A stretch of DNA of 64,000 nucleotides from positions 68,125 through 132,124 of the forward strand of contig JBAZZR010000003.1 in NCBI GenBank assembly GCA_041658665.1, written 5' to 3'. The stretch's first letter is position 1. Each line of letters begins with the position of its first letter. This document shows, piece after piece, positions 38,878 through 64,000 of the stretch. The DNA comes from Patescibacteria group bacterium (GTDB lineage: Bacteria; Patescibacteriota; Patescibacteriia; Patescibacteriales; UBA12465). The translations under genes were made by a program, and so were the position numbers. Below the pieces are notes generated by a model. It was given only the letters and a program-made list of their open reading frames with translations. It did no database searches and was not told the origin of the DNA.

Positions 38878-38893
38878 AAATTATAATTATTAT

Positions 38894-39760: not shown

Positions 39761-39768
39761 ATAATCCC

Positions 39769-39870: not shown

Positions 39871-39916
39871 TTAGATAATTAAACAAAAATTAACGAACTT
39901 TAACAAAGGAGAAATC

Positions 39917-43100: not shown

Positions 43101-44393
43101 TTACTTCTCCGCCCACTCTTTCCCCTGTCGCACCAATAACTCACCGGCTTTTTCTGGCTCGGCCATTATTTCTTTAACAATTTTTTCTAGTCGCATCCCC
43201 TGAGATCCTTTGACTAAAATTAAATCGCCGGCCTTAATTCGATTCTGTAAAAAATGTCCGGCTTCGGCTAGTTTATCAAAATAAAAAATATGTTCATCGG
43301 CTAAACCCGCCGCCTGAGCGCCTCTGACGATATCGCGCGCCTTTTCACCAACCGCGATTAAATAATTTATTTTAGCAGCAGCGACTTTTCGGCCGACAAT
43401 CTGGTGGCCTTCTTCGGTATAATGGCCAAGTTCTAACATATCGCCCAAAACCGCATATTTAGAAGCGGCCTCATCAGTTTTTATCCGACCTAAAATATCT
43501 AAAGCGGCGACAACCGCTTCGGGAGAAGAATTATAGGTATCATCAATAATAAAAGTATGTTTAATGCCTGGCAGGACGTTCATGCGACCAGCGGGCAAGC
43601 TAAAACTATTCAGAGCTTGAGCGACTTCGACTAAATTAAGTTCAAAATAAAGACCAACAGCCGCTGCCGCTAAGGCCGCATAAATCGCGCTTTCCGTAAG
43701 CACATTATTCATAAAAACCGGAACCACTGCGCCATTATAATTTAACTTAAAATTCAAGCCCGCTAATTCATAGTTGCCTTTAGTAAAATTAAAAATAATA
43801 TCTTGCGCCTGTAAATTAGCCCCCTCTTTTAAGCCATAAGTCAGAACCCGAGTTTTACTGGCACTAGCCATTTCGCGCGCCGGCTCATTATCATAATTTA
43901 AAACCGCTAAACCTTTATTATCGAGGTTCTCAATTAAAACTTGTTTTTCCTTCTTAATATTAACTAAACTACCAAAATATTCGAGATGCGAATAACTAAC
44001 CGCGGTCACGACGCCAACGGTCGGCGGGGCTAAACGAACTAAATAGGCCATATCGCCAGGCCGATCCACTCCCATTTCTAAAACTAAAACCTGCGGATAA
44101 GTATTATCGCGAAGAATAATAAGTTTAAGCGCGTGACAAAAGACTTTTGACCAACCGAACAAGCTAGCGCCTGGCGAATCACAACCAAAAATAGTGAGCG
44201 GCAAGCCGATCTCGTTATTATAATTTTTTTGGCTCATACGCACGGCCAGCTTATCTTTTAAAACCGTGTAAATCGCTTCTTTAGTGCTAGTCTTACCCAG
44301 CGAACCGGTAATCGCAATAATAACCGGCCGGTATTTTTTTAAAATCAGCCTGGCCCAAAAATTTAGTTTTAATTGCAAAATTTTTCGTATCAT
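43101..44393 (-). CDS. murF: UDP-N-acetylmuramoyl-tripeptide--D-alanyl-D-alanine ligase
   Basis: ITGSLGKTSTKE P-loop, the Mur ligase middle and C-terminal domains, and the dcw context. Confidence 0.9.
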   Translation of the reverse strand: MIRKILQLKLNFWARLILKKYRPVIIAITGSLGKTSTKEAIYTVLKDKLAVRMSQKNYNNEIGLPLTIFGCDSPGASLFGWSKVFCHALKLIILRDNTYPQVLVLEMGVDRPGDMAYLVRLAPPTVGVVTAVSYSHLEYFGSLVNIKKEKQVLIENLDNKGLAVLNYDNEPAREMASASKTRVLTYGLKEGANLQAQDIIFNFTKGNYELAGLNFKLNYNGAVVPVFMNNVLTESAIYAALAAAAVGLYFELNLVEVAQALNSFSLPAGRMNVLPGIKHTFIIDDTYNSSPEAVVAALDILGRIKTDEAASKYAVLGDMLELGHYTEEGHQIVGRKVAAAKINYLIAVGEKARDIVRGAQAAGLADEHIFYFDKLAEAGHFLQNRIKAGDLILVKGSQGMRLEKIVKEIMAEPEKAGELLVRQGKEWAEK

Positions 44394-44448
44394 ACCAATT
44401 AATTTAAACTTTAACTCTCCAATTAATTTAAGCTTTAACTCTATTTAT

Positions 44449-46446
44449 CTATCTCGTTTTCGGCACTTGATAATATTTCAGCATAAAATCAGCAATATCT
44501 TTCCAAAGGGGCAAAGCGGAACCTTCCGCATATTGAACGTCTTTAGGCGCATCAATTTTCGTCAACATAACAAAAGCCGGATTATCAATTGGCGCTATGC
44601 CGATAAACGTATGAATATATTTATCTTTACTATAAGATCCGTCCACGGCCACTTGCGCCGTGCCGGTTTTTCCGCCGACATAATAACCGGCGATAGCGGC
44701 ACGTTTAGCATGACCATTTTCTACCACGTTAACTAACATCGCCGAGATAGTCGCAGCTGTTTTATCGCTAATTACTTTTCTAACTTGTTTGGGCAAAATA
44801 TCCTCCCGGCGACCGTCGCGAATAATCGCCTTAACCACGTAAGGCTTCATCATCGTACCGCGATTAGCGAGCGCTTGATAGGCCATCACCATTTGCAAGG
44901 GGTTAGTAGCAATTCCTTGGCCGAAAGAAGCCGTGGCGGCGTCTATTTCTTTCACCTTCTTACTTAATAACTGATTAATATCACCAGGCGACTCGGCGCC
45001 TAATTCAATTCCCGTCCGTTCGCCAAAACCATAATTCTTAACATAATCCGCAAAGACTTTAACACCCGCCTGACGCATAGCGAAAATCGCTCCGGTATTT
45101 AAAGAGTAATCTAAAACTGTGCTCATATTAACTACGCCGTGCGGTCCAAAAGTCGAGTAGTCAGAATTTCGAATCGGCTTAGGCCAACCGTTAATCATAA
45201 TTTCGCCAGCATCCTTATAAGTAGTATTAGGCGTCACTTTCCCCTGATCAATAGCAATAGACATCGTCACCGTTTTAAATACCGAACCGGGTTCGTATTG
45301 ATCAAAAATAGCGGGATTATTATAAACATTCAAATCTTTGACCGCTTTATAATTATTAGGATCAAAGTCGGGCACGGAACACATCGCAATAATAGCTCCC
45401 GTTTTAGGAGCGATGACGATAACTGAGCCACCGCTCGCGCCATGCTGCTTAACCGCTTCCTTTAATTTCTGACAAGCCATAAATTCAACGTTGCGATCAA
45501 TTGTTAAAACTAAATCCGCTCCCGGAGTCGGTTTAGTATATTCCCGATCACTGACAATCATTAAATTAGACTGACCGCCTTTTTCTGATTTTAAATAGCC
45601 GTATTTCCCAAAGAGCTCTTCGTTAAAAAATTCCTCTAGGCCATACTTTCCCTTACCTTCACCGTCCGCATAACTAACGAAGCCTAAAAGGTGCGAAGCG
45701 ATTTCTTTCTCGGGATAATAACGAAAACTCTCTAAATTAAAATCTAAACCAGGGATTTTAAGTTCCGTGGCCGAAGAGGTCGCGCGGGCTTTATAAAATA
45801 CTTGATAATTTTTTAATTCTAAATCATTAGCGTGCACTGGACTAGAAGTCGAACTAGCTAAAAAAGCAAATAATTTTAAGAGGGTATCACTGTCAATCTT
45901 TTTATTACTTAAAGAATCATAGACACTACCTGGTTTATCAAAATGTTTAAGATAATAGGCGATCCGTTCTTCTCTTGTCGAAGTCGCTAGGAGCGTTTTA
46001 GTGCTACTTGCGTCCGGACTAATAGCCAAAGTCGAAGAACCGCTAAATTTCCCCGCCGCCGCGAGAGCCAAAGCCGGAACGTCAAAAAATTCATAAAATT
46101 TTTCGGCGAAAGCACGGGGGTCACTAATATCTTTAGGCACGGCAAAAAGGACAGCGAACTCTTTATTAGTTGCCATCGGATAAAGTCTTTCTTGTTTATT
46201 AATAGACTCGGTAAAATAAATTTTACCGCGCGCCGGTTCTAAACGGCTAGAAGTCTGCTGCTGACTGGCGGCCATCGCCGTATAAAGATCGCACTGTTTT
46301 ATTTGTAAATTAAAAAGCTGATAAACCAAAGCCCCGGCAAATAAAAAAATAATCGCCACGACTAATCGCCAGCGACTAAGACTAACCCGGGCTCTCTCCG
46401 GCCTAGAGTTGTTGGAAACATTACGCCACATATTATTAACTTTCAA
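44449..46446 (-). CDS. ftsI: Penicillin-binding protein 2/3-type transpeptidase (FtsI-like)
   Basis: N-terminal TM helix, SVFK (SxxK) and KTGTA. The track start is a TTG at 46446. An in-frame ATG at 46431 is an alternative start. Confidence 0.9.
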   Translation of the reverse strand: MKVNNMWRNVSNNSRPERARVSLSRWRLVVAIIFLFAGALVYQLFNLQIKQCDLYTAMAASQQQTSSRLEPARGKIYFTESINKQERLYPMATNKEFAVLFAVPKDISDPRAFAEKFYEFFDVPALALAAAGKFSGSSTLAISPDASSTKTLLATSTREERIAYYLKHFDKPGSVYDSLSNKKIDSDTLLKLFAFLASSTSSPVHANDLELKNYQVFYKARATSSATELKIPGLDFNLESFRYYPEKEIASHLLGFVSYADGEGKGKYGLEEFFNEELFGKYGYLKSEKGGQSNLMIVSDREYTKPTPGADLVLTIDRNVEFMACQKLKEAVKQHGASGGSVIVIAPKTGAIIAMCSVPDFDPNNYKAVKDLNVYNNPAIFDQYEPGSVFKTVTMSIAIDQGKVTPNTTYKDAGEIMINGWPKPIRNSDYSTFGPHGVVNMSTVLDYSLNTGAIFAMRQAGVKVFADYVKNYGFGERTGIELGAESPGDINQLLSKKVKEIDAATASFGQGIATNPLQMVMAYQALANRGTMMKPYVVKAIIRDGRREDILPKQVRKVISDKTAATISAMLVNVVENGHAKRAAIAGYYVGGKTGTAQVAVDGSYSKDKYIHTFIGIAPIDNPAFVMLTKIDAPKDVQYAEGSALPLWKDIADFMLKYYQVPKTR

Positions 46447-46509
46447 CTCCCCGCTCCCGCCGTTAAAATCCGAAAAATGTAGAGCTGGGTTTTAAGAGCT
46501 AGGGTTATA

Positions 46510-46851
46510 TTACTTCTTAGCTAAAGACAAATTCGCGCTGGATAAATATTCGACATCGCCGACGGCAATCATATTCAAACTACCGGCCCGCGCGTTCACG
46601 GAATAATAAGATTGCGCTAAACTAACTTTTTCTTCTTGATCGGCTTGGCTACTCGCTAAAGACATCGCCCGCGATTTTAATTCTCGAAGAATAAAGCCTT
46701 GAGCCGTCAAAGCACTAATATTGAATAAATAGAAAACACCAACCGCAGCAATAACCGAAAATAAACCGAGATTAAAATATTTGAGCGATAATTTTTTAGG
46801 TTTGGCGGCGTTATTTAAAGAGATAGCGCAACCATTGATAATCTTGGTCAT
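46510..46851 (-). CDS. Small bitopic cell-division protein (FtsL-like by position)
   Basis: 113 aa with a single TM helix, located between rsmH and ftsI. Confidence 0.5.
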   Translation of the reverse strand: MTKIINGCAISLNNAAKPKKLSLKYFNLGLFSVIAAVGVFYLFNISALTAQGFILRELKSRAMSLASSQADQEEKVSLAQSYYSVNARAGSLNMIAVGDVEYLSSANLSLAKK

Positions 46852-46876
46852 AAGTAAGAAGCAAATTTATATTAAT

Positions 46877-47776
46877 TTAAAAATTATTTAATTGTCGGGC
46901 AGCGGCCCGTAGTTTAGCACTCCTAGAGCGAGGATTATTCTCTAATTCCGACTCACTCGGCGTTAGTGGTCTCTTAGTTAAAATATCTAAGACCTCGCTA
47001 GAGCGAAAAAATCTTTTAACAATCCGGTCTTCGCCGCTATGAAAAGAAACTACGACCAGACGACCACCCGGCGACAAAATTTTCAAAGTAGCCGGTAAAA
47101 CTTCCTGTAAAGCGCCTAGTTCATCGTTCGTCGCTATTCTTAAGGCTTGAAAGATTCTCGTCGCGGGATGAATCCTCGAATGAACACGAGGCGGAACGAT
47201 TCTTTCCACTATTTTAACTAAATCCAAGGTACTAGTAATGGCATGCTCCCGTCGCGCCGCAATTATTCCTTTAGCGATCTGATAAGCTCGTTTCTCTTCT
47301 CCGTATTCTCTAAATATTCTCGTTAAATCCGGCAAAGAATAATGATTAACTATTTCCCTGGTCGAATTCTCATTTAACGGACCAAACGACATATCAAGCG
47401 GCCTTTCGCCCTGAAAGGAAAATCCTCGCTCAGTATCCTCTAGCTGAGCCGAGGACAGACCGAGATCAAAAACAATCCCATCAAACTTATCTGATTTCGG
47501 AAAATACTGTTTAACAACCGTGGCTAAATTTTTAAAATTCTCTTGAACTAAACTGACATTATTTAAATTACTATCACGAATAAGTTGTCGGGCACTATCA
47601 ATCGCTAAGGCATCTAGATCTAAACTAAGGATTCGGCCCCGTTCTCCCACCGCTCTGGCTAGAGCTAAAGTATAACCGGCTCCGCCTAAGGTACAGTCAA
47701 TGAAGGATTCCCCCGGCTGAGGATCGAGATAGGCTAGGACTTCAGTCAGCATGACCGGGATGTGGGCATAAGCCAT
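46877..47776 (-). CDS. rsmH: 16S rRNA m4C1402 methyltransferase RsmH (MraW)
   Basis: HIPVML, DCTLGGAGY, DLGLSS and FHSGEDR. Confidence 0.95.
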   Translation of the reverse strand: MAYAHIPVMLTEVLAYLDPQPGESFIDCTLGGAGYTLALARAVGERGRILSLDLDALAIDSARQLIRDSNLNNVSLVQENFKNLATVVKQYFPKSDKFDGIVFDLGLSSAQLEDTERGFSFQGERPLDMSFGPLNENSTREIVNHYSLPDLTRIFREYGEEKRAYQIAKGIIAARREHAITSTLDLVKIVERIVPPRVHSRIHPATRIFQALRIATNDELGALQEVLPATLKILSPGGRLVVVSFHSGEDRIVKRFFRSSEVLDILTKRPLTPSESELENNPRSRSAKLRAAARQLNNF

Positions 47777-47783
47777 AAAATTT

Positions 47784-48215
47784 TTAAATTCCTAAATCTC
47801 CCAACTCTTCGGCAATCGCGTTACTATTTTTCTCTGATTCTTTCTTATACTTATTCCAGCTCGCTTCATTCCAAATTTCTAAATGATTATATAAACCGGC
47901 AATAATTATACTTTTATGGAGACCGGAAAATTTACGCAGATATTCCGGCAGAGTGATTCGACCCTGATTATCAAATTCTAAATCCATCGCGCCGGCTAAC
48001 ATATGACGAGAAAAAGCGCGCGCCTTCGATTGGCTTAAAGGAAGCGCCGCAAACTTGGCGGCAATTTTTTCAAACTGTTCTTTAGAGTATAAAAATAAGC
48101 AGTCATCCAAACCCTTGGTCACTACTGCTCCTTTTTTTAAAATGGCCCGAAACTTAGCCGGTATTGCTAAGCGCCCTTTGTCATCTAAATTATGATTGTA
48201 TTCACCGATAAACAT
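47784..48215 (-). CDS. mraZ: Transcriptional regulator MraZ
   Basis: Two DxxxR motifs (DDKGRLAIPAKFR and DNQGRITLPEYLR). I prefer the start at the ATG at 48215 (MFIGEYNH). The track ORF extends to 48275. Confidence 0.9.
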   Translation of the reverse strand: MFIGEYNHNLDDKGRLAIPAKFRAILKKGAVVTKGLDDCLFLYSKEQFEKIAAKFAALPLSQSKARAFSRHMLAGAMDLEFDNQGRITLPEYLRKFSGLHKSIIIAGLYNHLEIWNEASWNKYKKESEKNSNAIAEELGDLGI

Positions 48216-48292
48216 AAATATTATTGTTAGGGAGATCTGATGATGACAAGCAAAGTTCACCACATCTCCCCACAATTCACCTTACGAGTTTA

Positions 48293-48850: not shown

Positions 48851-50314
48851 TTATTTTCTTTTCAAAATTTTAATAATTCCTTGATCAGCATTAACCTCAA
48901 CCTCATCGCCATCGTTTAAAATCTGGGTAGCAATCTTTGTCCCGATAACACAAGGGATTTTTAATTCCCGAGAAATAATCGCGGCATGAGAGGTAATCCC
49001 GCCTTCATCCGTAATTATCGCCGCCGCTAGCTTCATCGCTGGTACCATTTCCGGCCGAGTCATTGAGGAAACCAAGATATCCCCCTTTTCCATATTAACC
49101 ATATCATGAATCTTTAAAATTTTTTTTACTCTACCCCGCGCCCGTCCTAAGGAAGCGGTTAAACCTTTTAATTCCTGTTCCGATTGCTGATCCTTAAAAA
49201 AATAAGCAAATATCTGCCGATAATCTCGGCCAGAGAATAAATAAAAACCGGCCGCCGTCTGTAAACAAGCGCTTCCCTTTATTCTCGACTTTAAAACCTG
49301 ACGAGAAATTTTGCCGCGCAAGCAATCGGCCACTTCCGGAAAAATTAAATATTTCAAATAAACCAAAGAAATTTTTGTCCGCCGAGAAATTTCCTCTAAA
49401 AATTTAAATTGATAAAAATTAGCTATCAAAACATACTTCTTTCTCGTATCTTGTATACCAAAAAATTCGTCCATAAGCCATAAAAGAGTTTTTTGCCAAA
49501 TCGTTAATTTATATTTTTTAATTATCTTCTGTTTCTTGCTCCAAGCTTGTTTTAAACTACCCGTCCGTCCGATTCTCCGGTTCTTTAAACCCGCAATAAT
49601 TAATTGTTTAAAATCCGTTCCCGTGAGTCTAACGCCGCGGGCATAATTATTAGTAATATAAAAATACTTAGCGGCATGAGCTGATAATTCTTGCTCCTTT
49701 AATTTTTTACCAATCGCTAGCTTCTGAATTAGTTTTTCACGCGCGAGCGCCTCTTCTTCAATAAACGATAAATGCCGAGTCGCTAATAAAGCCGGAAAAT
49801 CTTGGGCAAAATTAGGGCCCAAAACTTTTTTGAATTCCGGCACTAAATATTTTTCCGCGGGCATAGAAATAGCGTCGCCGAGCACCATAAAATATTTAAA
49901 CTCTTCCGAGTAGGCTTCATAGAAAGAATTATAGGCCTTCACTAAATCCTGATTAGACAGTTTAGCGAGGTCTAAATGATCTATTTTTTTTAGGACTATT
50001 TCAAAAATTTTAATTTTTCGAGCCCAAGCTTTTTTTAAATTAGCCAAATAATTCTTATTTTTCTTTAACCGCTTAAAAAACTCCTCTCGAATAAAAGTTA
50101 AATCATTTTCATTCCAATACCAATGAATATAATTATCTTTAGCAAAAAAAATAGTCCTGACCGCCCGCTGGCTTAAAAAACTCTGCACCGCTGGACCAGT
50201 TTGACCGACCGGAAAAAAAGTATGAAAAATCCCATGGAAACCTTTATAAATCCACTCGGAATCAGCTAAATTATATTTCTTGATAAGCGAATCAATTTTA
50301 GGCTTAGTTATCAT
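48851..50314 (-). CDS. Protein with a C-terminal PEP-utilising-enzyme mobile (phosphohistidine swivel) domain and an unknown N-terminal ~400 aa (paralog 2)
   Basis: The C-terminus reads GDILVSSMTRPEMVPAMKLAAAIITDEGGITSHAAIISRELKIPCVIGT. I recognised no ATP-grasp or PEP/pyruvate TIM-barrel motif. Confidence 0.75.
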   Translation of the reverse strand: MITKPKIDSLIKKYNLADSEWIYKGFHGIFHTFFPVGQTGPAVQSFLSQRAVRTIFFAKDNYIHWYWNENDLTFIREEFFKRLKKNKNYLANLKKAWARKIKIFEIVLKKIDHLDLAKLSNQDLVKAYNSFYEAYSEEFKYFMVLGDAISMPAEKYLVPEFKKVLGPNFAQDFPALLATRHLSFIEEEALAREKLIQKLAIGKKLKEQELSAHAAKYFYITNNYARGVRLTGTDFKQLIIAGLKNRRIGRTGSLKQAWSKKQKIIKKYKLTIWQKTLLWLMDEFFGIQDTRKKYVLIANFYQFKFLEEISRRTKISLVYLKYLIFPEVADCLRGKISRQVLKSRIKGSACLQTAAGFYLFSGRDYRQIFAYFFKDQQSEQELKGLTASLGRARGRVKKILKIHDMVNMEKGDILVSSMTRPEMVPAMKLAAAIITDEGGITSHAAIISRELKIPCVIGTKIATQILNDGDEVEVNADQGIIKILKRK

Positions 50315-50316: not shown

Positions 50317-51813
50317 TTATTTTAGAATAATTATTCGCCCTTTATCGAGATCAAGTTCAACTTCGTCTCCATCTTTTAAAATTTCGGTGGCCACCTTTGT
50401 ACCGATGATGGCGGGAATCTTTAGTTCGCGAGAAACAATGGCCGCATGACATAACATTCCACCTTCATTAGTAATAATGGCTTTAGCCTTATAAATAGCC
50501 GGCATAAATTGCGGCATAGTTTGTCCGGCTACTAATATTCTCCCCTCGGGAAAATTATAGATTTTTTTATCAATATCTTTTTCTCCCCATTTAAAAACAA
50601 ATACTCTACCTCGAATCTTACCGCGGCCACTAGCGGCCTGGCCAAAAAACTCCGACACTGAAACTATCTCTTCTGCTAATTCCGCCTGATATTTTCTTTC
50701 GGCTTCTTTACCCCAAAAAATTTCATACCCTTTTTCCGGTGTTATTAGAGCTAAGATATTACCGCCACGCCGTTTACGATGTTCCGCGGTTAATTTGAAA
50801 TTTCCCTTTAACAATTTAATAAATTCAGGAAAAGTTAAATTAAACACATCTTCTTTCGGCAAATTGAATATAGCGGCCGTTCTAGATACTAATAGCGGCC
50901 CTAAATAAAGGAGAAAGGCCCAACCTTTGAGATGGGCTTCTAGTCGCAACCAACTTAAAACTCTAATAGTCTTTATTTTTTCTAGTAACGACTGAGGAAG
51001 TTGATAAAACTCCGCAATCTTAAGCTGACTATTCCTGGTTTTTAGACCTCGACTACTTATTTCTTTTAATTCATGTTCTAAAATTGATAAGCTCTTAGTT
51101 GATTCAGCTTGTAATAATTTTTGGTAATGTTTTTTATCCCAAGTCCCAAACTGCGAACTAGCCGGTAAATATTTATAAAGATTTATCTGACAAGCTATCC
51201 GGGTAGACAATTCTTCTGGGTCTAACTTTCCTTTCTTATAAGGAATAGAAATTTTTTGTAACCAGTTTTTTCTCTCTTCCTCTAGACAAGTCGGCCGATC
51301 CGATTTAATAAGGGCTAAAAATTTCTCCTGTAATTTATTGTCGGGTACATACTTATTAAGTTCTCTTAGCAAAAAACGATTAAGCTTAGCCGTATACTCT
51401 GGTTGAGATAAAAAATAATAGCCCATCGATTCATTATAAAGAAGCGCCGATTTTTTAACTAAATCGAGAATCTGTTTGGCCGCCAATCGATTAACTGGAA
51501 AATGGTCAATTTCTTTTTTTAATTGGTCAACTTCACTGACTATCTCTAAAGTTTTTTTAATATATTCCTTAACTTTTTTTTGATTCGTAAAAAATTTATA
51601 ACCAATTTCCGCTTTTTTCTCCTCATCCTCGGTCCAAGTATGTTCACTAAAAACCCGATTCTGACGGTCTAGATAACTAGCATAACTCTCTTTACAACCC
51701 GTTAACTTCTCAGTAATCAAAAATGAATCATAATAAGATAGTTCGCCAAAAATAAAAGTTACCGATTCGGCTTTACTAGTATAATACTTATTCCAAGACA
51801 TAATTTTATCCAA
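50317..51813 (-). CDS. Protein with a C-terminal PEP-utilising-enzyme mobile (phosphohistidine swivel) domain and an unknown N-terminal ~400 aa (paralog 1)
   Basis: The C-terminus reads GRILVAGQTMPQFMPAIYKAKAIITNEGGMLCHAAIVSRELKIPAIIGT, with LCH in place of the usual TSH. Confidence 0.75.
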   Translation of the reverse strand: MDKIMSWNKYYTSKAESVTFIFGELSYYDSFLITEKLTGCKESYASYLDRQNRVFSEHTWTEDEEKKAEIGYKFFTNQKKVKEYIKKTLEIVSEVDQLKKEIDHFPVNRLAAKQILDLVKKSALLYNESMGYYFLSQPEYTAKLNRFLLRELNKYVPDNKLQEKFLALIKSDRPTCLEEERKNWLQKISIPYKKGKLDPEELSTRIACQINLYKYLPASSQFGTWDKKHYQKLLQAESTKSLSILEHELKEISSRGLKTRNSQLKIAEFYQLPQSLLEKIKTIRVLSWLRLEAHLKGWAFLLYLGPLLVSRTAAIFNLPKEDVFNLTFPEFIKLLKGNFKLTAEHRKRRGGNILALITPEKGYEIFWGKEAERKYQAELAEEIVSVSEFFGQAASGRGKIRGRVFVFKWGEKDIDKKIYNFPEGRILVAGQTMPQFMPAIYKAKAIITNEGGMLCHAAIVSRELKIPAIIGTKVATEILKDGDEVELDLDKGRIIILK

Positions 51814-56321: not shown

Positions 56322-56389
56322 AAAATTATAATTATTTAATTATAGCTTTATTTTATCACGTTTTGACAGAAAAAGCATTTTTTAGTAAG

Positions 56390-56463
56390 TGGTCGTTAGT
56401 GGATTCGAACCACTGACCTCCGCGATGTGAACGCGGCGCTCTAACCAGCTGAGCCAAACGACC
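56390..56463 (-). tRNA. tRNA-Val (anticodon CAC)
   Basis: The minus strand folds as a canonical cloverleaf: GGTCGTT-TG-GCTC-AGCTGGTTA-GAGC-G-CCGCG-TTCACAT-CGCGG-AGGTC-AGTGG-TTCGAAT-CCACT-AACGACC-A. CCA is not encoded. Confidence 0.9.
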
Positions 56464-57093: not shown

Positions 57094-57149
57094 ATCACAC
57101 CTCGATGTTTATTGAAAAACGATTAATTAATTAATAAAGAACAGAACGG

Positions 57150-57233
57150 TGCCCGGGGGGGGATTTGGACCCCCATGGGATTGCTCCCACAGCGTTCTGA
57201 ACACTGCGTGTCTACCAATTTCACCACCTGGGC
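57150..57233 (-). tRNA. tRNA-Leu (anticodon CAG), class II with a long variable arm and non-canonical features
   Basis: Minus strand: GCCCAGG-TG-GTG-AAATTGGTAGA-CAC-G-CAGTG-TTCAGAA-CGCTG-TGGGAGCAATCCCAT-GGGGG-TCCAAAT-CCCCC-CCCGGGC-A. There is an A5:C68 mismatch, and the T-loop reads TCC rather than TTC. Confidence 0.8.
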
Positions 57234-57938: not shown

Positions 57939-58244
57939 TTACCCACGGTGATACATCCGACTATTTTCTTCTCGGTCTTCATCCAAACATTTTATCCGCT
58001 CTTCGGCCTTAAGTCTGTTAGCCTCTTCTTCGAGCTCCTTCCTTTTTTTCTCTCTCATAATCGCCTCTTGATGAGCACGCGCTAAATCTAAATCATCCAG
58101 CGACTCATCGTTTTGACTATCGTCTATATTCTGTTCGGAGCTAGGTCGTAATTTAGTATCATCTAAATTTTTAGCTTCCGAACTTTTAGCTAGTTTTTTC
58201 TCACTGTCAAAATCTAACTCATAATTATAATTTTCTTTAGCCAT
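57939..58244 (-). CDS. Small, highly acidic, low-complexity/coiled-coil hypothetical protein (101 aa)
   Basis: The ORF is bracketed by a 15-nt direct repeat. The composition is D/E/K-rich. Confidence 0.45.
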   Translation of the reverse strand: MAKENYNYELDFDSEKKLAKSSEAKNLDDTKLRPSSEQNIDDSQNDESLDDLDLARAHQEAIMREKKRKELEEEANRLKAEERIKCLDEDREENSRMYHRG

Positions 58245-58329: not shown

Positions 58330-58354
58330 AAATTTATATCGAAAAAGTTAATAT

Positions 58355-58381
58355 AAAAAGAACCGCTCTACGGTTCTTTTT
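58355..58381. terminator. Bidirectional intrinsic terminator after the giant surface-protein gene
   Basis: AAAAAGAACCG-ctcta-CGGTTCTTTTT. Confidence 0.75.
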
Positions 58382-58441
58382 ATCTAATATTAAATATATT
58401 TATTTATTTTATTGTTTCCTATTATTTTTTATCTCTCTTTT

Positions 58442-61400
58442 TTATTTCTTAGCGCCGCTATAAGAAACCGCCCGAACAACATTCCAAGCTAAAGCATTGA
58501 CTGGCTGATGGCCATAGACCCAGCGGAAACTTTTAATAGCCGCCGCTTCGCTCGCTAAATTACGTTGCGTCGGCAATAATCCATAAGCGATAACCATAAT
58601 CGCGTTAGAGTCGGCCTTATTAGCCATCACCGCGTTACGGGCATAGACTTTTTTAAACTCTAATTTCGCCTGATTTTCTGCCGCTATATTTCGCTCACTC
58701 GGCCAGCGACCACTAGCAATCTTCAACACATCAGACCATTCTCCTCCAGCATTTGGTAATTTACCATAAGCCTGATAATAAGAATTAGTAACTCCTGCTC
58801 GTTCACCAACGCCGAGACGCTGCGTAGTCGGGGTACCGTAGACGATAAAATCATTGATACTTTCTTTTTCATCCGTCGTAATTTTTTTATCTTGCCCTAA
58901 AATTGTTTTGTATTTTACTAGACTCGCCTGTTCACTAAGAGCATTAGCTTTTTTACCTAAATATGTTAACAGGGTTGCCGTATTATTAGCGCTAACAATT
59001 CCAGACTCAGTAGCAATATTTCCTAAAACATTACTAATCGGGGAAACCGGAGCCGGAGGAGTCGAAGGAGTTGAAGGAGTTGAAGCGGGCGGAAGAGTCG
59101 AAGTAGTAGGAGGGGTAGAAGTAGCAACAGTGGTTTGACAAGTCCTTTGAGCAGCTGCTTGTTGAGCAGTGATTAAAGTACAACTACTAGGAGTACTAGT
59201 AAGAACGGAACGGGTTTGAATATTGCCGAAGCAAGAGGCGCCCCAGTCTGAATAAGTAACTGAACTACAATAGACAGTGGCCGGACTACCGCCACCAGTA
59301 CTGCCGGAAGAAGAGCTACTAATAGTATAAACAGAAGTAGCCACTGGACCAGCGGAATTATTATTATAACAGGCTAAACTTTTAATAGTTTTGGTAGAAG
59401 TAATAGAAATAGCTCCGGAGTATAGAGTACCGGCGCTACAAGTAGTAGCGTTAGAACAGCTAGGTGTTGAACCATCAACCGTATAACAGATAGCGGTAGA
59501 ACCAGCCGCGGCGAGAGTAACGCTCTGTGTACTGGAATAGGTACTAGCGGCCGGAGACGGGGTCGGGGCGGCAACCACCACGCCGTCCATATTGCCGACA
59601 TTACTATTTAGACCGGTGTTTAAATCGCCAGTGACGGAGGAGGGTATAGTTGTAGTCGTAGAAGCCACCGCCGAAGCAGCCGACTCGCCTGAAGCATTCA
59701 AGGCCGAAATTTTATAGTAATAAATGGTACTAGTAGCGAGCCCCGAATCAGAATAAGTCGTAGTGAGTCCCGACGCAACAGTTGGTTCAGATCCTATTCT
59801 TGGGAAATCTCCTGACCCAGAAGTATTTCTATATATATCATAACTAGTTGCTCCGCTTACCGCACTCCAGGAAAGATTAATTTGAGTCGGCCGATAGAGC
59901 GTCGCCGCTAATCCCGAAGGTGTGGCGGGAGCATCGTCGGCCGGAACAGTCGGCGCGAATGAGGATAAATGGGATACTGTTCCAGAAAGTGTTACTGCCG
60001 GATCGGAATCTAAATCGTTTAGCGAAGCGGCAGTGGCCGGATGTAAAGTTACTGAAGTAGGAATTTCCACCCAGTTATTAGCGGTAGAGTCCCAATAAGA
60101 AATTTTCATTCCCTGGACCTGAGAAAAAGAAAGACCTTGTTCTTCAATCTCAGCTTTGGTCACAGTGAATTCAATCGTAATACTGCCCGACAAGGTTGTA
60201 ATATTTTGGTTAGAGCTGTTACGCGCGGTAATATCACGAGCATTGCCAATAACTTTTGTAGAGGCAACGGTCGGAACATTAGTCGTATTTTTTACTTCGA
60301 CTGTACCAGCGCTCGAACCAGTCCCTAAAGAATTTTTAGGAAAATCAACTTTAATTCCATCCTCCTGAATAATTCCCCCAGAAGAGGGCGTAATTGGTGA
60401 ATTTTTTAAATTTGCAGAAAAACCGACAATTGTCGCTAGAGTTATATTTGTGCCCGTCGCCGGCGCGGTAACTAATGTCGAAGTCGAATTGTAGCCATCA
60501 TAAGCGGCCTGAACGTTCCAATTACCACTGCCAACATTTAAAGAATAAGTACCGTTAGCATCGGTTGATCCGCCTGACCAGCCACCAGTATTATTTTGTG
60601 CCCAAACTCGCGCGTTAGTAACCTTAGTTACTCCGTTCGGGAGATAAACGGTTCCCGCTATAGTACTCTCAGCGGCGGAAAGGGTTAAATCTTTACCAGT
60701 TAAAGGCGCCCCACTAACTGTTACTGTAATTTTATTACCAATATAACCCGGCTTACCGACGCCGATATCATAGGTGCCATTTCTTAATTTCAAAGTATAA
60801 GTTCCATCATCCGCTGTTTGCGCACCACCACCGCCATTTGATCCCGAGGTCCAAATCCAGGCGCCGCCATTACTATCGCTACCCGTTACCGTCCCCGAGA
60901 CAGAATAAAATCCTCCTAAAGTATATTCAATAATGCCGTCGTTAGCCGTTCCACTCGCTTCAGTAAATGTCCCATTACTATTTACCACAATAGTATTTTG
61001 CACTAACGGTCCATAGCCCGGAATACCTCCTTCCACGTAATAAGTGGTTGACCCAGAACCAGGACGAGGGATATCAATCTGATATTCTCGATAAAGAGAG
61101 CCCCCCGCGGCCACATCAACATCCGAAAATCCGCCGCCCTGATCACTATGAACGCCAATAAATGCTTGAGAAAAATCAGTCGCCGGAGAAATCCGAACCT
61201 TAATAGTCGAGGCGAGTAAAGTAATATTCTGTACGGTGCTAGTGCTAATTGTTCCTAAATTTTCTTTATACACTTCGCCTTTCCCGGGTAATCCGACATG
61301 AATCCAACGATTACTACCGCCAGAAATACGCGCCGAATATGCCCCTCCGGAATCAGTGCCGCCACTACCCAACATTTGTCCACGCTCCCCCTCGGTAATA

Positions 61401-64000
61401 AATATAAAAGCTTGCTGTAAGCCGACGCCACCCTTAGTAACCGTCCCAGACACCGTATAATTATTAGACGAACTAACATTAAAGTTAACCGTCGGATGAG
61501 TTTCGGAACTGACAACAATTCCCTGTTGTTCACCTAAAAACCCAAATGACTGTGAATTCGCGCCAATATGATAATTATTTCCCGGGCCAACATACATTTT
61601 ATAATATCCTTGACTGTCCGTTTGAGCATTACCATTTCCTGGACCGCCTTCTAGCCAAGCATAGAGAGAAACATTAGCGAGACCATTACCCGCCGCGTCT
61701 TTAACATAACCTTCAATAAAATCAGAAGGCGGAGCGATTATAATTGTCGGGCCTTTATCGGGCTGACCGACTAAATAAGTATCATCAACTTCAACCTGCA
61801 CTTCAACCGGAAAAGGCATATTATCTCCGCCTACTCCTATTTTCCACATTCCTCTAGAAACATTAAGAGTAAAAGTGCCATTCTCCGCTACTTGCGCACC
61901 AGTTCCCTTTCCTTCTTGCGGTTGATAGGCAAAGACCCATAATTTACCTCGCTCTTCGCTACCAAAATTACCTGACGGTTTTTCAACATGACCAACGATT
62001 TTATGCGTGGCTGCAGAAAAAATAAAATTGTTTGTAGATGTTAAGACGGAATCAGAAATAGTCGCCAACTGCGATTCGGGATCGGTGAATGAAGTTGAGG
62101 CCGTAATACCACCAACCGTTGAAGGCTGGATATGTGCTTCAATTCTATAAACACCATTAGAGGAAACACCAATCGCGTAATTAGCGACACAACTACCGTT
62201 CGTCGTAAAAAAAGCCGGATTAGCTTCTTTAAAACCCGTGCTAATACTCTCGGGCGCAGCAAACACGACTACTCTTTTATTTCGTCCGCCGTCGCTACAA
62301 GACGAACCAAGCGTCATCGTCCCAGAAATAATTCGCGTCGTCGCGGGCATAAATAAATTTTGAGTCGTTCCCGTGTTGACTTCTTTACCGGAAGAATTTA
62401 AATGCGTTCCGGTTATATCATAAGCCCAAGTATAGCCCATAGAAGAAACCCCCGTAATAGAAAATCGATTAGTATCGGCGTCATAAGTCATATATCCATC
62501 ACCAACAGCGTAAACCGTCTCACCATTCGTTCCACCAATAACGATCCGAATATTAGAGTTGTCTTCATCCGTCATCGGCGTCGAGGTTCCCGCTGAATAA
62601 TATACTTTTGCCGTATAGGTGCCAGCGATATCAAAAAAAGTATTTTGTCCCATGTCATTCATTAGATCACCAGCCTTAATATTGACTGGGCCACCTTGCG
62701 CGCCGTCAGGGACTTTTACTACAATAGATGAGGTCGACCAGGTTGCCCCGGTATAATCTGCTTCGATCGGAGGAAGCGGACCAGTTTGCTGGCTGAATCC
62801 ACCAGAGAAGAGAACTTTATGATTATTATCACCAATACTGCCCTCTCCGAGAGTACCAAACCCCGTACCAGTAATTGTTACCGTCGCGCCTACGGCGCCA
62901 GATCGAGGGCTTATATTAGTAATATTGGGCAGACTAAGAACTTGAACGGGCATACTTGAACTAGCATAGGCGGTGAGTCTATTATTTGCTCCGCTTAAAT
63001 CCGTAATTGTGGTAGAAGTCGGGACAGAAAAAGAAACGGTGCCTGATAAATTAAGACCGCGAATAGTTATTTTCGTTCCCGAAAAATCTATAAAGGGATT
63101 ACCCGCACCGCCACAAGTCGTCGAGGTAGCGTTGATAATATAATTAGGGGCACAGTTCATCGCTTGCATCCCGTCGACATTTTCACTTAAATCTAAAATA
63201 ATTCTATCCGTAAACGCAGCGGCAGAACTAATGTATGGAGCCGCGTCGGCCACTACCGTAACCAAATTTGATAAATTACCCGCCTGATCACTAACTCGCG
63301 TTTTTACGCTTGTATAAGTCGTGGTATTAATTGAAATTGGCGCAAAATTACCCGCTGGCCCTAACGTAGCTTGCCCTAAAAACGTTGTGCCATCCATATC
63401 ATAAACTTTTACTACGCTACCCTCCATACCAATAGACGAGCCATTCCTCGCTAGAATCTGATTATTCCCTAAAATGAAATTATCACCTAAAATATTAGCC
63501 GGTGCGATTGCATCCAAACGAAGCGGCGCCGTAGAAACAGCCGAGATTGTTGGCGATACATCGCTAGTAGTAATACTATCAGAAGCCATCGAGATTATAA
63601 ATTCATGCGTATCAGAATTTAAGTCGGCAGCTGTTTTAAAAACAACAAAAAACACGCTCGGTGTTTCAGAGAGTGTTATAGAATCCTTTAAAGTAAGCGC
63701 AGTTAAAAATAATCCAGAACCAGTCCAAACGGGAGTAGAGGAAGCTTCTAAAAATCCACTAGCTTCACTATATAAAGAAATCCCTGAACTGCTGCTCGTA
63801 GCTAGCGCCGCTAAATCGCTAGTAGAAAACCCCGTACTGCCCGCGTCGGCCACTCCGACGGTCACTGCCGTAAGTGTTTCCCCGGTACCAGTTAAAGAAA
63901 TTCGGATAGCGCTTGTTGTAGCACTATTCCCTTTCACCCAAGTAGGCGAAGCGATCAGATTAGTAGTAGTAGCGCTCACCGCGGCGTGGGCGGAAGAAAA
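58442..64000 (-). CDS. Giant secreted/surface multi-domain protein (>1852 aa; N-terminus outside the window)
   Basis: The reading frame stays open to the window edge (FSSAHAA/VSATTT looks like the end of a signal peptide). Motifs seen: IPT/TIG-like PNITNISPRSGAVGATVTITGTGFG; several carboxypeptidase-regulatory-like units (GYVKDAAGNGLANVSLYAW..TDSQGYYKM; GTVYLPNGVTKVTNARVWAQ..TDANGTYSL); FN3 (INLSWSAVSGATSYDIYRN..YYYKISALNASGES); a Pro/Thr linker; and a duplicated C-terminal module. Confidence 0.85.
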   Translation of the reverse strand, partial: FSSAHAAVSATTTNLIASPTWVKGNSATTSAIRISLTGTGETLTAVTVGVADAGSTGFSTSDLAALATSSSSGISLYSEASGFLEASSTPVWTGSGLFLTALTLKDSITLSETPSVFFVVFKTAADLNSDTHEFIISMASDSITTSDVSPTISAVSTAPLRLDAIAPANILGDNFILGNNQILARNGSSIGMEGSVVKVYDMDGTTFLGQATLGPAGNFAPISINTTTYTSVKTRVSDQAGNLSNLVTVVADAAPYISSAAAFTDRIILDLSENVDGMQAMNCAPNYIINATSTTCGGAGNPFIDFSGTKITIRGLNLSGTVSFSVPTSTTITDLSGANNRLTAYASSSMPVQVLSLPNITNISPRSGAVGATVTITGTGFGTLGEGSIGDNNHKVLFSGGFSQQTGPLPPIEADYTGATWSTSSIVVKVPDGAQGGPVNIKAGDLMNDMGQNTFFDIAGTYTAKVYYSAGTSTPMTDEDNSNIRIVIGGTNGETVYAVGDGYMTYDADTNRFSITGVSSMGYTWAYDITGTHLNSSGKEVNTGTTQNLFMPATTRIISGTMTLGSSCSDGGRNKRVVVFAAPESISTGFKEANPAFFTTNGSCVANYAIGVSSNGVYRIEAHIQPSTVGGITASTSFTDPESQLATISDSVLTSTNNFIFSAATHKIVGHVEKPSGNFGSEERGKLWVFAYQPQEGKGTGAQVAENGTFTLNVSRGMWKIGVGGDNMPFPVEVQVEVDDTYLVGQPDKGPTIIIAPPSDFIEGYVKDAAGNGLANVSLYAWLEGGPGNGNAQTDSQGYYKMYVGPGNNYHIGANSQSFGFLGEQQGIVVSSETHPTVNFNVSSSNNYTVSGTVTKGGVGLQQAFIFITEGERGQMLGSGGTDSGGAYSARISGGSNRWIHVGLPGKGEVYKENLGTISTSTVQNITLLASTIKVRISPATDFSQAFIGVHSDQGGGFSDVDVAAGGSLYREYQIDIPRPGSGSTTYYVEGGIPGYGPLVQNTIVVNSNGTFTEASGTANDGIIEYTLGGFYSVSGTVTGSDSNGGAWIWTSGSNGGGGAQTADDGTYTLKLRNGTYDIGVGKPGYIGNKITVTVSGAPLTGKDLTLSAAESTIAGTVYLPNGVTKVTNARVWAQNNTGGWSGGSTDANGTYSLNVGSGNWNVQAAYDGYNSTSTLVTAPATGTNITLATIVGFSANLKNSPITPSSGGIIQEDGIKVDFPKNSLGTGSSAGTVEVKNTTNVPTVASTKVIGNARDITARNSSNQNITTLSGSITIEFTVTKAEIEEQGLSFSQVQGMKISYWDSTANNWVEIPTSVTLHPATAASLNDLDSDPAVTLSGTVSHLSSFAPTVPADDAPATPSGLAATLYRPTQINLSWSAVSGATSYDIYRNTSGSGDFPRIGSEPTVASGLTTTYSDSGLATSTIYYYKISALNASGESAASAVASTTTTIPSSVTGDLNTGLNSNVGNMDGVVVAAPTPSPAASTYSSTQSVTLAAAGSTAICYTVDGSTPSCSNATTCSAGTLYSGAISITSTKTIKSLACYNNNSAGPVATSVYTISSSSSGSTGGGSPATVYCSSVTYSDWGASCFGNIQTRSVLTSTPSSCTLITAQQAAAQRTCQTTVATSTPPTTSTLPPASTPSTPSTPPAPVSPISNVLGNIATESGIVSANNTATLLTYLGKKANALSEQASLVKYKTILGQDKKITTDEKESINDFIVYGTPTTQRLGVGERAGVTNSYYQAYGKLPNAGGEWSDVLKIASGRWPSERNIAAENQAKLEFKKVYARNAVMANKADSNAIMVIAYGLLPTQRNLASEAAAIKSFRWVYGHQPVNALAWNVVRAVSYSGAKK

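What the first reader, a model, noticed from the sequence alone, without database searches (positions are those of the whole stretch)
58442..64000. Surface protein of more than 1850 aa, built from Ig-like/carboxypeptidase-regulatory-like/FN3 modules with a duplicated C-terminal module, truncated by the window edge
Seen in the sequence: the frame is open to position 64000, and the residues just before the GTG chosen by the ORF track read FSSAHAA|VSATTT. That looks like the end of a signal peptide with an AxA cleavage site, so the real start is outside the window. Modules recognisable by eye are an IPT/TIG-like unit, at least 4 carboxypeptidase-regulatory-like beta-sandwiches, one FN3, a Cys-containing beta domain (ICYTVDGSTPSC...TIKSLAC), and a TSTPPTTSTLPPASTPSTPSTPPAPVSP linker. 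The C-terminal ~120 aa contain two copies of a ...(T)QR(L/N)...E...F...YG(K/H)(L/Q)P...W..V....Y module. Inference: this is probably an adhesin or S-layer-like envelope protein, and the C-terminal duplicated module is a candidate cell-surface anchor of unknown type.
Basis: partly seen in the sequence, partly recalled or inferred. Interest (0 to 1): 0.55.

Follow-up and report, generated by a model that had tools for sequence, protein, structure and literature searches.

The report
Patescibacterial surface protein, undescribed C-terminal module
The gene encodes a roughly 1,875-residue exported protein of an ultra-small (Patescibacteria/CPR) bacterium, and it ends in a 198-residue helical domain that no database names but that closes hundreds of different exported proteins in this lineage, so it is probably the tag that holds them on the cell surface.

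Summary
An uninterrupted minus-strand ORF (58442..64000) encodes 1,852 residues and runs off the window. Orthologues at 72% identity show that only about 24 residues are missing, and those are the start of a Sec signal peptide. Pfam finds TIG, three CarboxypepD_reg copies, FN3 and CHB_HEX_C/Fn3_assoc domains. A 4-Cys mini-domain and a Thr/Pro linker follow.

The C-terminal "duplicated module" is real but larger than described. It is a 198-aa all-alpha domain (AF2 pLDDT 92.5) with three clearly related 42-aa repeats, a degenerate fourth and an N-terminal cap. It has no match in Pfam or NCBIfam, in PDB by sequence or fold, or in BFVD by fold.

A profile search finds 1,378 protein clusters. In 248 of 250 unique members the module ends at the protein's C-terminus, usually as AYSGA[KT]R. 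Most complete members have signal peptides, and their passenger domains vary widely (fn3, Ig-like, beta-helix, subtilase). Named source genomes are almost all Patescibacteria, and some carry 2-5 copies. The module is basic (median pI 9.4) and the passengers are acidic (4.4).

Best reading: a lineage-specific, non-covalent cell-envelope retention domain. This function is inferred, not shown. The anchor family is new, but this kind of anchor is already known.

The parts
58442..64000 (-). Giant surface-protein gene. 1,852 codons are in the window, the stop codon is at 58442-58444, and the 5' end (about 24 codons) lies beyond the window edge.
63980..64000 (-). Last 7 residues of the Sec signal peptide (FSSAHAA), with the predicted AxA cleavage site before VSATTT.
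   Evidence: Alignment to the full-length N-termini of orthologues P0023 and P0024.
62675..62929 (-). IPT/TIG Ig-like domain (aa 358-442).
   Evidence: Pfam PF01833, E 8e-8.
61463..61717 (-). CarboxypepD_reg-like beta-sandwich 1 (about aa 762-846).
   Evidence: Pfam PF13620 and PF13715 on sub-segments.
60704..60901 (-). CarboxypepD_reg-like beta-sandwich 2 (about aa 1034-1099).
   Evidence: Pfam PF13715, E 2.8e-5.
60446..60664 (-). CarboxypepD_reg-like beta-sandwich 3 (aa 1113-1185).
   Evidence: Pfam PF13620; whole-protein E 2e-16 with best stretch here; E 1.3e-9 on the isolated segment.
59657..59923 (-). Fibronectin type III domain (aa 1360-1448).
   Evidence: Pfam PF00041, E 6e-6.
59327..59554 (-). 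CHB_HEX_C_1 / Fn3_assoc domain (aa 1483-1558).
   Evidence: Pfam PF13290 E 1.9e-8 and PF13287 E 2.4e-7.
59138..59275 (-). 4-Cys mini-domain (aa 1576-1621) with pattern C..VTY..W..C...Q.R.....P..C.LT..QQ....C.
   Evidence: Conserved directly upstream of the linker in 65 of 213 module proteins. AF2 gives pLDDT 75-84 and a small beta-rich fold. No Pfam hit.
59039..59137 (-). Thr/Pro/Ser-rich linker (aa 1622-1654).
   Evidence: Sequence. AF2 pLDDT below 50, so it is predicted disordered.
58445..59038 (-). Undescribed C-terminal all-alpha module (aa 1655-1852), the candidate envelope-retention domain.
   Evidence: AF2 pLDDT 92.5, pTM 0.88, 11 helices. Family of 1,378 clusters. Always C-terminal. 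No Pfam, NCBIfam, PDB or BFVD match.
58847..58972 (-). Module repeat unit 0 (aa 1677-1718), degenerate.
58721..58846 (-). Module repeat unit 1 (aa 1719-1760): YGT..T..LG.GERAGV.NSY..A.GKLP....W.D..K.
58592..58720 (-). Module repeat unit 2 (aa 1761-1803): IA.GRWPSER...AE..AK..FKKVY.R.
58466..58591 (-). Module repeat unit 3 (aa 1804-1845): IAYGL.P..RNL.SE..AIK.F...YG..P.....W..VRA.
58445..58465 (-). Conserved extreme C-terminus. It reads SYSGAKK here and AYSGA[KT]R in 180 of 250 family members.
58353..58383 (-). Terminator-like hairpin (14 pairs followed by a T-run), about 60 nt after the stop codon.
   Evidence: This is a consensus scan only.

Best explanation
The gene encodes a Sec-exported protein of about 1,875 aa from a Patescibacteria (CPR) bacterium; the closest orthologue that carries a lineage name is titled Candidatus Azambacteria. 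A long acidic stalk of Ig-like, TIG, CarboxypepD_reg, FN3 and CHB_HEX_C beta-sandwich domains is joined to a basic 198-aa all-alpha domain by a small disulfide-type mini-domain and a disordered Thr/Pro linker.

That C-terminal domain belongs to a large, unannotated, Patescibacteria-restricted family. It is the one constant element at the C-terminus of many otherwise unrelated exported proteins.

The most likely mechanism runs as follows. After Sec export, the basic helical module binds non-covalently to a conserved, probably anionic, component of the producer's own envelope. Candidates are peptidoglycan, a secondary wall glycan, or a membrane-linked polymer. The linker crosses the wall and the passenger domains project outward. 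The module would then be the functional equivalent of SLH, CWB2, GW or LysM anchors, but on a different fold.

Shown here: the architecture, the repeat structure, the confident helical model, the family size, the strictly C-terminal position, the signal peptides, the passenger diversity, the taxonomic restriction, the multiple copies per genome and the charge contrast. Inferred: the binding itself, the ligand, and the orientation.
For: - Profile search: 1,378 representative proteins at E<=1e-3 and 909 at E<=1e-30, with host proteins of 162-3,605 aa.
- Position: 248 of 250 unique members end within 2 aa of the module's end, and AYSGA[KT]R is the last heptapeptide in 180 of 250. Every module ORF that extends to the end of the profile in 82 loci ends with the module (Cgap 0).
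- Export: 99 of 130 Met-starting representatives have an N-terminal hydrophobic signal-like segment. The window protein's orthologues have a signal peptide.
- Passengers are diverse extracellular domains: fn3, CHB_HEX_C, Bact_surface_Ig-like, Beta_helix, Peptidase_S8, LTD, Cadherin-like and Kelch.
- No other anchor is present: no LPXTG in the last 60 aa of any member, and the protein ends hydrophilically.
- Charge: module pI has median 9.4 (76% above 8.5), against a passenger median of 4.4 (91% below 6). The window values are 9.65 and 4.63.
- A disordered Thr/Pro linker precedes the module.
- Copies per genome: 5 loci in CAYSKV01, 3 in CAVVFV01, and six loci with two module genes within 12 kb. 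The sister MAG JAVHRV01 carries the orthologue (L003, 88.8% nt identity) plus a second module gene, L024.
- One member adds a PG_binding_1 domain after the module (E 3e-14), which fits a wall-proximal location.
- The window itself encodes peptidoglycan synthesis (MraZ, RsmH, PBP, Mur ligase) and a rhamnose/glycosyltransferase cluster, so candidate ligands exist.
- The module is much more conserved than the passengers across a host-diverse lineage. By inference, this favours a ligand on the producer rather than on variable hosts.
Against: - There is no experimental or structural evidence of binding.
- Neither fold nor sequence resembles any known wall-binding domain, so the analogy is functional only.
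- About a quarter of the modules are not basic.
- Stand-alone proteins of signal peptide plus module exist (P0014, 229 aa), so anchoring a passenger cannot be the module's only role.
- No conserved neighbouring gene points to a ligand pathway or a partner.
- Model coordinates could not be inspected, so no binding groove was demonstrated.
- The near-invariant extreme C-terminus would also suit a recognition or processing signal.
Confidence: 0.58

Rival explanations
1. The module is a C-terminal sorting or processing signal. It would be a folded recognition domain, like the T9SS C-terminal domain, read by a dedicated and still unknown attachment or processing enzyme. That enzyme would cleave it or link the protein covalently to the envelope.
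For: The position is strictly C-terminal, and the last residues are nearly invariant (Y-S-G-A-x-R-COOH; 248 of 250 end with the module). Many different cargo proteins per genome carry it.
Against: Patescibacteria are described as lacking lipid A/LPS genes (PMC5220378), so by inference no second membrane needs to be crossed. The module has no hydrophobic tail and no LPXTG-type motif. No conserved neighbouring enzyme gene was found in 82 loci. A 198-aa domain with three internally repeated, conserved loop motifs looks more like a multivalent binder than a signal.
Confidence: 0.12
2. The module mediates protein-protein interaction. Either it docks onto a membrane or S-layer receptor protein, as in cohesin-dockerin pairs, or it self-assembles into a lattice, which would make these proteins S-layer or fibril components.
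For: Helical-repeat domains commonly bind proteins. In 15 loci a short protein (signal peptide, Cys domain and module) lies next to a large secreted protein that lacks the module; L002 is one example. Stand-alone module proteins also exist.
Against: No conserved partner gene lies near the module genes across all loci. The strong basic-versus-acidic contrast is more typical of binders of anionic polymers. The large neighbour in L002 is not homologous to the window's passenger, so there is no fusion-based argument.
Confidence: 0.15
3. The module targets secreted proteins to the surface of the host cell on which these episymbionts live. It would be a host-wall-binding domain, like the targeting domains of lysins and bacteriocins.
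For: Cultivated Patescibacteria are episymbionts (PMC11623550 abstract). Secreted proteins with wall-binding domains (PGBD) were proposed as host-adhesion factors in Paceibacteria (bioRxiv 10.1101/2023.08.25.554742). Some cargoes are hydrolases such as Peptidase_S8.
Against: The module is very conserved (31 invariant positions among 20 diverse members) across orders whose hosts presumably differ, whereas host-binding modules usually diversify. Without the module these giant proteins have no other means of staying on the producer. A distal host-binding tip would be expected at the end opposite the anchor.
Confidence: 0.1
4. The protein is an ordinary multidomain exported protein, and the C-terminal region is just a lineage-specific structural domain with no anchoring or sorting role.
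For: There are no functional data. Many DUF-type domains have no special role.
Against: A strictly terminal position on hundreds of unrelated cargoes, with several copies per genome, is the signature of a localisation module and not of a passenger domain.
Confidence: 0.05

Closest known systems
SLH (S-layer homology) domains, Pfam PF00395
   Same: Both consist of tandem helical repeats, about three per domain, placed at a terminus of many different exported proteins in one genome. SLH binds an envelope polymer non-covalently (established knowledge), and the same is inferred here. Both carry conserved Arg, Glu, Trp and Gly positions repeated in each unit.
   Different: No sequence match to PF00395, and no SLH structure appears among the Foldseek hits. 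The units here are 42 aa, not about 55. There is no TRAE motif. The domain is strictly C-terminal and restricted to Patescibacteria.
GW modules (Listeria InlB/Ami), CWB2 (Clostridioides Cwp proteins), LysM, and the Lactobacillus SLAP C-terminal domain
   Same: These are repeated, often basic, non-covalent wall- or teichoic-acid-binding modules that retain a family of surface proteins, with variable acidic functional regions attached (established knowledge).
   Different: They have beta or alpha/beta folds, whereas this module is all-alpha. There are no Pfam matches. The ligand here is unknown.
PG_binding_1 (PF01471) and CW_7 (Cpl-7) helical peptidoglycan-binding repeats
   Same: These are small helical bundles that bind peptidoglycan. 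CW_7 units are also about 42 aa (own knowledge).
   Different: No HMM or fold match. One family member (P0070) carries a true PG_binding_1 domain in addition to the module, so the two are distinct.
C-terminal sorting domains: LPXTG/sortase signals and the T9SS C-terminal domain
   Same: Each is a constant C-terminal element shared by many cargo proteins that also have N-terminal Sec signals.
   Different: There is no LPXTG motif, hydrophobic segment or charged tail. NCBIfam gave no hit on the full protein, so no C-terminal sorting-domain model in that library matched. The fold is all-alpha and the domain is 198 aa, whereas the T9SS domain is an 80-100 aa beta-sandwich.
PMBR, pseudomurein-binding repeat (PF09373)
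   Same: It is a short repeated wall-binding unit. It was the only wall-related Pfam family to appear at all.
   Different: It matched only 2 of 23 members, with best E 0.074, which is noise level for 23 searches.

Membership tests
Multidomain Ig-like/beta-sandwich exported surface proteins (TIG, CarboxypepD_reg, fn3, CHB_HEX_C) | Significant matches to the Pfam domain models. | tested here: met
   PF01833 E 8e-8; PF13620 E 2e-16 (3 stretches); PF00041 E 6e-6; PF13290 E 1.9e-8.
Sec-exported proteins | N-terminal signal peptide with a basic n-region, a hydrophobic h-region and an AxA cleavage site. | tested here: inconclusive
   The window holds only the last 7 residues (FSSAHAA). Orthologues at 72% and 71% identity have the full MKKIHKIVPFVLLVVAAGFFAFSYIVTVRA|A peptide. 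No dedicated signal-peptide predictor was available.
SLH domain proteins (PF00395) | Match to the SLH HMM and the SLH three-repeat fold. | tested here: not met
   No Pfam hit at E<=10 for the window module, and none among the families reported for the 23 members scanned at E<=1. No SLH structure appears in the Foldseek PDB lists.
PG_binding_1 (PF01471) | Match to the HMM. | tested here: not met
   No hit on the module. The HMM does detect the extra tail of P0070 (E 3.3e-14), so the test has power.
PMBR (PF09373) | Match to the HMM above the curated cut-off. | tested here: not met
   Best E 0.074 in 2 of 23 members, and none in the window protein.
Sortase substrates (LPXTG-type cell wall sorting signal) | LPXTG-like motif, then a hydrophobic segment, then a basic tail, all at the C-terminus. 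| tested here: not met
   No LP.T[GAN] in the last 60 aa of any of 250 members. The proteins end in the folded helical module.
Curated C-terminal sorting domains in NCBIfam (T9SS Por_Secre_tail, PEP-CTERM, etc.) | Match to the NCBIfam/TIGRFAM model. | tested here: not met
   NCBIfam release 20.0 gives 0 families at E<=1 for the whole protein.
The new C-terminal module family (defined here by alignments A1 and A3) | Full-length match to the 198-position profile, ending at the protein's C-terminus with Y-S-G-A-x-[RK]. | tested here: met
   The window protein matches profile positions 3-198 at E 3.8e-99 and ends SYSGAKK. It is 39-73% identical to 19 diverse members.
Non-covalent cell-wall anchors (functional class) | Demonstrated binding to an envelope polymer. 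| not testable with these tools
   Only indirect support: the charge contrast, the linker, and co-occurrence with PG_binding_1 in one member.

The most novel reading that the evidence does not exclude
The module is not merely a passive binder. It would be the recognition domain of a Patescibacteria-specific surface-attachment system that has not been described. A dedicated machinery or a lineage-specific envelope polymer would read the invariant loops and the Y-S-G-A-x-R C-terminus. The set of module-bearing proteins would then define the organism's displayed surface proteome, including the factors that contact its hosts.
Probability: 0.15. Interest if true: 0.85.

Novelty: new variant of a known kind. 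Interest (0 to 1): 0.6.

Why it matters
How CPR/Patescibacteria build their envelope and display proteins is largely unknown. [quoted passage not shown] These bacteria are thought to live attached to other cells, so their surface proteins are the likely host-interaction factors.

A single sequence-defined C-terminal tag shared by more than 1,000 protein clusters would have three uses:
- It gives a simple way to predict the displayed proteome of any genome that carries it.
- It offers a handle (module-GFP fusions, antibodies) for labelling or enriching uncultivated cells.
- It points to a conserved envelope ligand that remains to be identified.

The domain also seems to be a fold with no solved or viral-predicted relative, and it is missing from Pfam and NCBIfam, so it deserves a family entry. 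The rest of the protein is an ordinary multidomain beta-sandwich surface protein.

Tried and rejected
- Pfam and NCBIfam on the whole protein, on the module alone, on sub-segments and on 23 family members gave nothing for the module except PMBR at noise level.
- A PDB sequence profile search gave one chance hit at E 0.49.
- Foldseek of two models against PDB, and of the first against BFVD, gave best E>1 and TM<0.4. The DUF4214 protein at BFVD rank 2 (E 1.7, TM 0.17) is not meaningful.
- Other copies in the 64-kb window: none found.
- Conserved neighbour analysis over 82 loci found no universal partner. Only subfamily synteny appeared: HU, sigma/anti-sigma, and a LamG-like large secreted protein.
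- The 'Rosetta-stone' idea was dropped. It proposed that the window protein is a fusion of the adjacent large protein and short module protein seen in L002. The L002 large protein is not homologous to the window passenger, sharing only a weak FN3 match at E 0.023.
- P0051, a DEAD-box helicase plus module, looked like a cytoplasmic counter-example. It is rejected as a probable assembly chimera: it sits on a 3-kb contig, the junction falls in a poly-Gly run, and there is an exact 32-aa duplication inside the module.
- Three literature searches for a described Patescibacteria C-terminal anchor or sorting domain found nothing specific.
- Rfam and tRNA scans show nothing inside the gene.
Full report
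**The observation**

The feature lies on the minus strand. An uninterrupted ORF runs from the window edge (base 64000) to a stop codon at 58442-58444, giving 1,852 codons. A terminator-like hairpin of 14 pairs followed by a T-run sits about 60 nt downstream, at 58353-58383.

**Domain architecture**

Pfam supports the following domains:
- IPT/TIG at aa 358-442.
- A weak Big_6 match at aa 191-251.
- Three CarboxypepD_reg-like beta-sandwiches, at about aa 762-846, 1034-1099 and 1113-1185.
- fn3 at aa 1360-1448.
- CHB_HEX_C_1/Fn3_assoc at aa 1483-1558.

Further copies are visible by eye but were not confirmed. After a poly-Gly/Ser stretch comes a 46-aa mini-domain with four Cys (aa 1576-1621). A 33-aa Thr/Pro/Ser linker follows, and then the last 198 residues. 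NCBIfam recognises nothing in the protein.

**N-terminus**

A search with the first 460 residues found orthologues at 72% and 71% identity. One is an NCBI protein from a 'Candidatus Azambacteria bacterium' MAG. Both begin MKKIHKIVPFVLLVVAAGFFAFSYIVTVRA|AVGG..., a typical Sec signal peptide. Window residue 5 aligns with residue 29 of the orthologue. About 24 residues are therefore missing, all of them signal peptide, and the full protein is about 1,875 aa. The window sequence itself cannot show it.

**Anatomy of the C-terminal module**

BLASTP between the two halves, and an HMM built from the units, show four consecutive units of about 42 aa. They lie at aa 1677-1718, 1719-1760, 1761-1803 and 1804-1845, and an N-terminal cap precedes them.

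Using family-wide sub-alignments, hhalign gives:
- u2-u3: 96% probability (E 2.4e-9).
- u1-u3: 90% probability (E 1.5e-6).
- u0 against any other unit: 19% or less.

So there are three clear repeats and a degenerate fourth.

AlphaFold2 with a 23-sequence alignment gives a confident all-alpha model (mean pLDDT 92.5, pTM 0.88, 11 helices). Each unit is a roughly 15-residue helix followed by a roughly 11-residue helix. A second model that includes the upstream region reproduces the helices. It also shows the linker as disordered (pLDDT below 50) and the Cys mini-domain as a small beta-rich unit (pLDDT 75-84).

The invariant residues recur in the loops that join units: Y-G-T...G.GE, N-G-R-W-P-S-E-R and Y-G-L-x-P-x-x-R-N. 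Further invariant W, Y, R, D and E residues lie in the helices. I read these as three equivalent sites. This reading is an inference, because the model coordinates could not be inspected.

**How widespread the module is**

A word-indexed search with the window's last 198 aa found only 22 proteins. All were short, and all ended with the module. A full HMMER profile search of 1.84 billion cluster representatives found 1,378 proteins at E<=1e-3 and 909 at E<=1e-30, with lengths of 162-3,605 aa.

Combining these with ORFs from 82 genomic loci gives 250 unique members:
- 248 end within 2 aa of the module's end.
- 180 end with the heptapeptide AYSGA[KT]R.
- None has LPXTG in the last 60 residues.

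Of 130 representatives that start with Met, 99 have an N-terminal hydrophobic signal-like segment. The others look like fragments from short contigs.

A Pfam census of 74 Met-starting representatives of up to 2,300 aa shows varied extracellular passenger domains. These include fn3, CHB_HEX_C_1, Bact_surface_Ig-like, Beta_helix, Peptidase_S8, CarboxypepD_reg, LTD, Cadherin-like, Kelch and Flg_new. The Cys mini-domain precedes the linker in 65 of 213 members.

**Taxonomy and copy number**

A scan of GTDB species representatives gave 416 confirmed matches. Among the best 80 loci the record titles are:
- Candidatus Falkowbacteria: 15.
- 'Patescibacteria group': 21.
- Parcubacteria: 3.
- Kuenenbacteria: 1.
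- Unclassified 'bacterium': 9.
- 'uncultured Gammaproteobacteria' (third-party assemblies): 29.
- Archaeal labels: 2.

At least the 'Gammaproteobacteria' locus L004 shares synteny with the window, including the RNase HII gene and two tRNA genes. I therefore treat those titles as unreliable.

Several assemblies contribute more than one locus. CAYSKV01 has 5, CAVVFV01 has 3, and five others have 2 each. Six loci hold two module genes within 12 kb.

The closest relative of the window is L003, from MAG JAVHRV01. It is 88.8% identical in nucleotide sequence over its whole 4.8 kb and carries the orthologous C-terminus. The same MAG has a second, different module gene, L024. L026 carries an orthologue of the middle of the giant protein at 78% nt identity. 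The window itself has no second copy.

**Is the module already known?**

The evidence says no:
- No Pfam-A (2025) hit at E<=10 on the window module. Among 23 members scanned at E<=1, the only match to a wall-binding family was PMBR, at E 0.074 in two members, which is noise level.
- No NCBIfam hit.
- No PDB sequence relative.
- No Foldseek match in PDB or BFVD: best E>1 and TM<0.4.
- All source names for members are 'hypothetical protein', and none has a precomputed Pfam domain on the module.
- Three full-text searches found no description of such a domain.

AlphaFold DB could not be searched.

**Mechanism**

The module is the only constant part of these proteins, it is always last, and the proteins have no other retention device. 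A localisation role is therefore the economical reading. Several observations favour non-covalent binding to the producer's own envelope:
- The module is basic (median pI 9.4) while the passengers are acidic (median 4.4). The window values are 9.65 and 4.63. This is the pattern known from GW, SLH, LysM and SLAP anchors (established knowledge).
- A disordered Thr/Pro linker precedes the module, like the wall-spanning regions of Gram-positive surface proteins.
- The three repeated conserved loop motifs suggest multivalent binding.
- One member appends a genuine PG_binding_1 domain.
- The window encodes peptidoglycan synthesis (MraZ, RsmH, PBP, Mur ligase) and a rhamnose/glycosyltransferase cluster, so candidate ligands exist.
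- The strong conservation across lineages with presumably different hosts argues for a ligand on the producer.

No conserved neighbouring enzyme was found. This is weak evidence against a sortase-like covalent system.

Four rivals remain: a folded sorting or processing signal (suggested by the invariant C-terminus), a protein-docking or self-assembly domain, a host-targeting domain, and no special role. I put the non-covalent self-envelope anchor at about 0.58.

**Genomic context**

Downstream of the gene on the minus strand lie:
- A 101-aa charged ORF with no family match.
- RNase HII, on the plus strand.
- tRNA-Leu and tRNA-Val.
- Two ORFs without family matches.
- CysRS and Dus.
- Two paralogues carrying a PEP-utilizers mobile domain.
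- The start of the dcw cluster.

Locus L001, from a 128-kb JGI contig, is syntenic. At the same position it has a short protein of about 361 aa made of a signal peptide, Cys domains, a linker and the module. The passenger region is thus exchangeable while the module and its position persist. In L002, a 1,500-aa secreted protein without the module is followed 13 nt later by a 330-aa module protein. That large protein is not homologous to the window's passenger, so I draw no fusion argument from it.

**Caveats**

- The function is inferred entirely from sequence, predicted structure and distribution.
- Many family members come from short metagenomic contigs and are fragments.
- One apparent cytoplasmic fusion, the DEAD-box helicase P0051, is most likely an assembly chimera.
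- Taxonomic labels of MAG records are unreliable.
- The signal-peptide call used a simple hydrophobicity rule, not a trained predictor.

**Verdict**

The giant protein itself is an ordinary multidomain exported surface protein. The interesting part is its last 198 residues. They belong to a large, uncurated, Patescibacteria-restricted C-terminal domain family with a confidently predicted helical-repeat fold that has no known relative. It is probably a new type of envelope-retention module. The kind of device is known, but the family and fold are new.

Noticed in passing
window 10307..15946 (-): A second giant ORF of 1,879 aa with no signal peptide. It has about nine tandem ~33-aa repeats (LAGLDSDRAWKMREELMASG...), a second helical-repeat region, and a transglutaminase-like core at aa 1563-1671. 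It is unrelated to the surface protein.
   Followed up: partly
window 48851..50314 and 50317..51813 (-): Two adjacent paralogous genes (487 and 498 aa). Pfam recognises only a C-terminal PEP-utilizers mobile domain, and the N-terminal ~400 aa are unassigned.
   Followed up: no
window 28640..39886 (-): A cell-envelope glycan cluster: RmlD, a nucleotidyl transferase, GT2, GT4, a DUF4012 protein (849 aa) and a DUF11 protein (668 aa). The start of the dcw cluster lies at 43101..48275 (MraZ, RsmH, PBP, Mur ligase). These are possible sources of the module's ligand.
   Followed up: partly
window 59138..59275 (-): A 46-aa four-Cys mini-domain (C..VTY..W..C...Q.R.....P..C.LT..QQ....C) with no Pfam match. 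It sits directly upstream of the linker in 65 of 213 module proteins. AF2 predicts a small beta-rich unit (pLDDT 75-84). It may be part of the anchor cassette.
   Followed up: partly
window 57148..57233 (-): ARAGORN calls tRNA-Leu(cag), and the sequence is about 90% conserved in L001 and L004. Rfam at gathering threshold did not report it; only tRNA-Val at 56389..56463 was reported.
   Followed up: no
P0070 (398 aa, family member): This is one of only two of the 250 members in which the module is not last, and the only one examined. A genuine PG_binding_1 domain (E 3.3e-14) follows it.
   Followed up: yes
L083 804..2849 (P0051): A DEAD-box helicase fused to the module on a 3-kb contig. The junction is in a poly-Gly run, and there is an exact 32-aa duplication inside the module. 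It is most likely an assembly chimera.
   Followed up: yes
L004 and other loci titled 'uncultured Gammaproteobacteria bacterium': 29 of the 80 best loci come from third-party MAG assemblies titled Gammaproteobacteria. Of these, L004 shares synteny with this Patescibacteria window (RNase HII gene and two tRNA genes); L005 and L006 match mainly in the module gene (L006 also in genes at window 21-27 kb). The titles look like placeholder or wrong taxonomy. One 'Nanoarchaeia' and one 'Methanobacteriaceae' record may be mis-binned.
   Followed up: partly
window 57939..58244 (-): A 101-aa, highly charged (Glu/Asp/Lys-rich) ORF lies directly downstream of the giant gene, with a promoter-like site upstream. 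It has no family match and may be spurious. The syntenic locus L001 has a BipA GTPase gene at this position instead.
   Followed up: no
L002 587..6095 and 14 other loci: A recurring gene pair. One partner is a large secreted protein with a LamG-like N-terminus (F.G..I...KW.EYD.GG.GG..GNV) and no module. The other is an adjacent short protein made of a signal peptide, a Cys domain and the module.
   Followed up: partly
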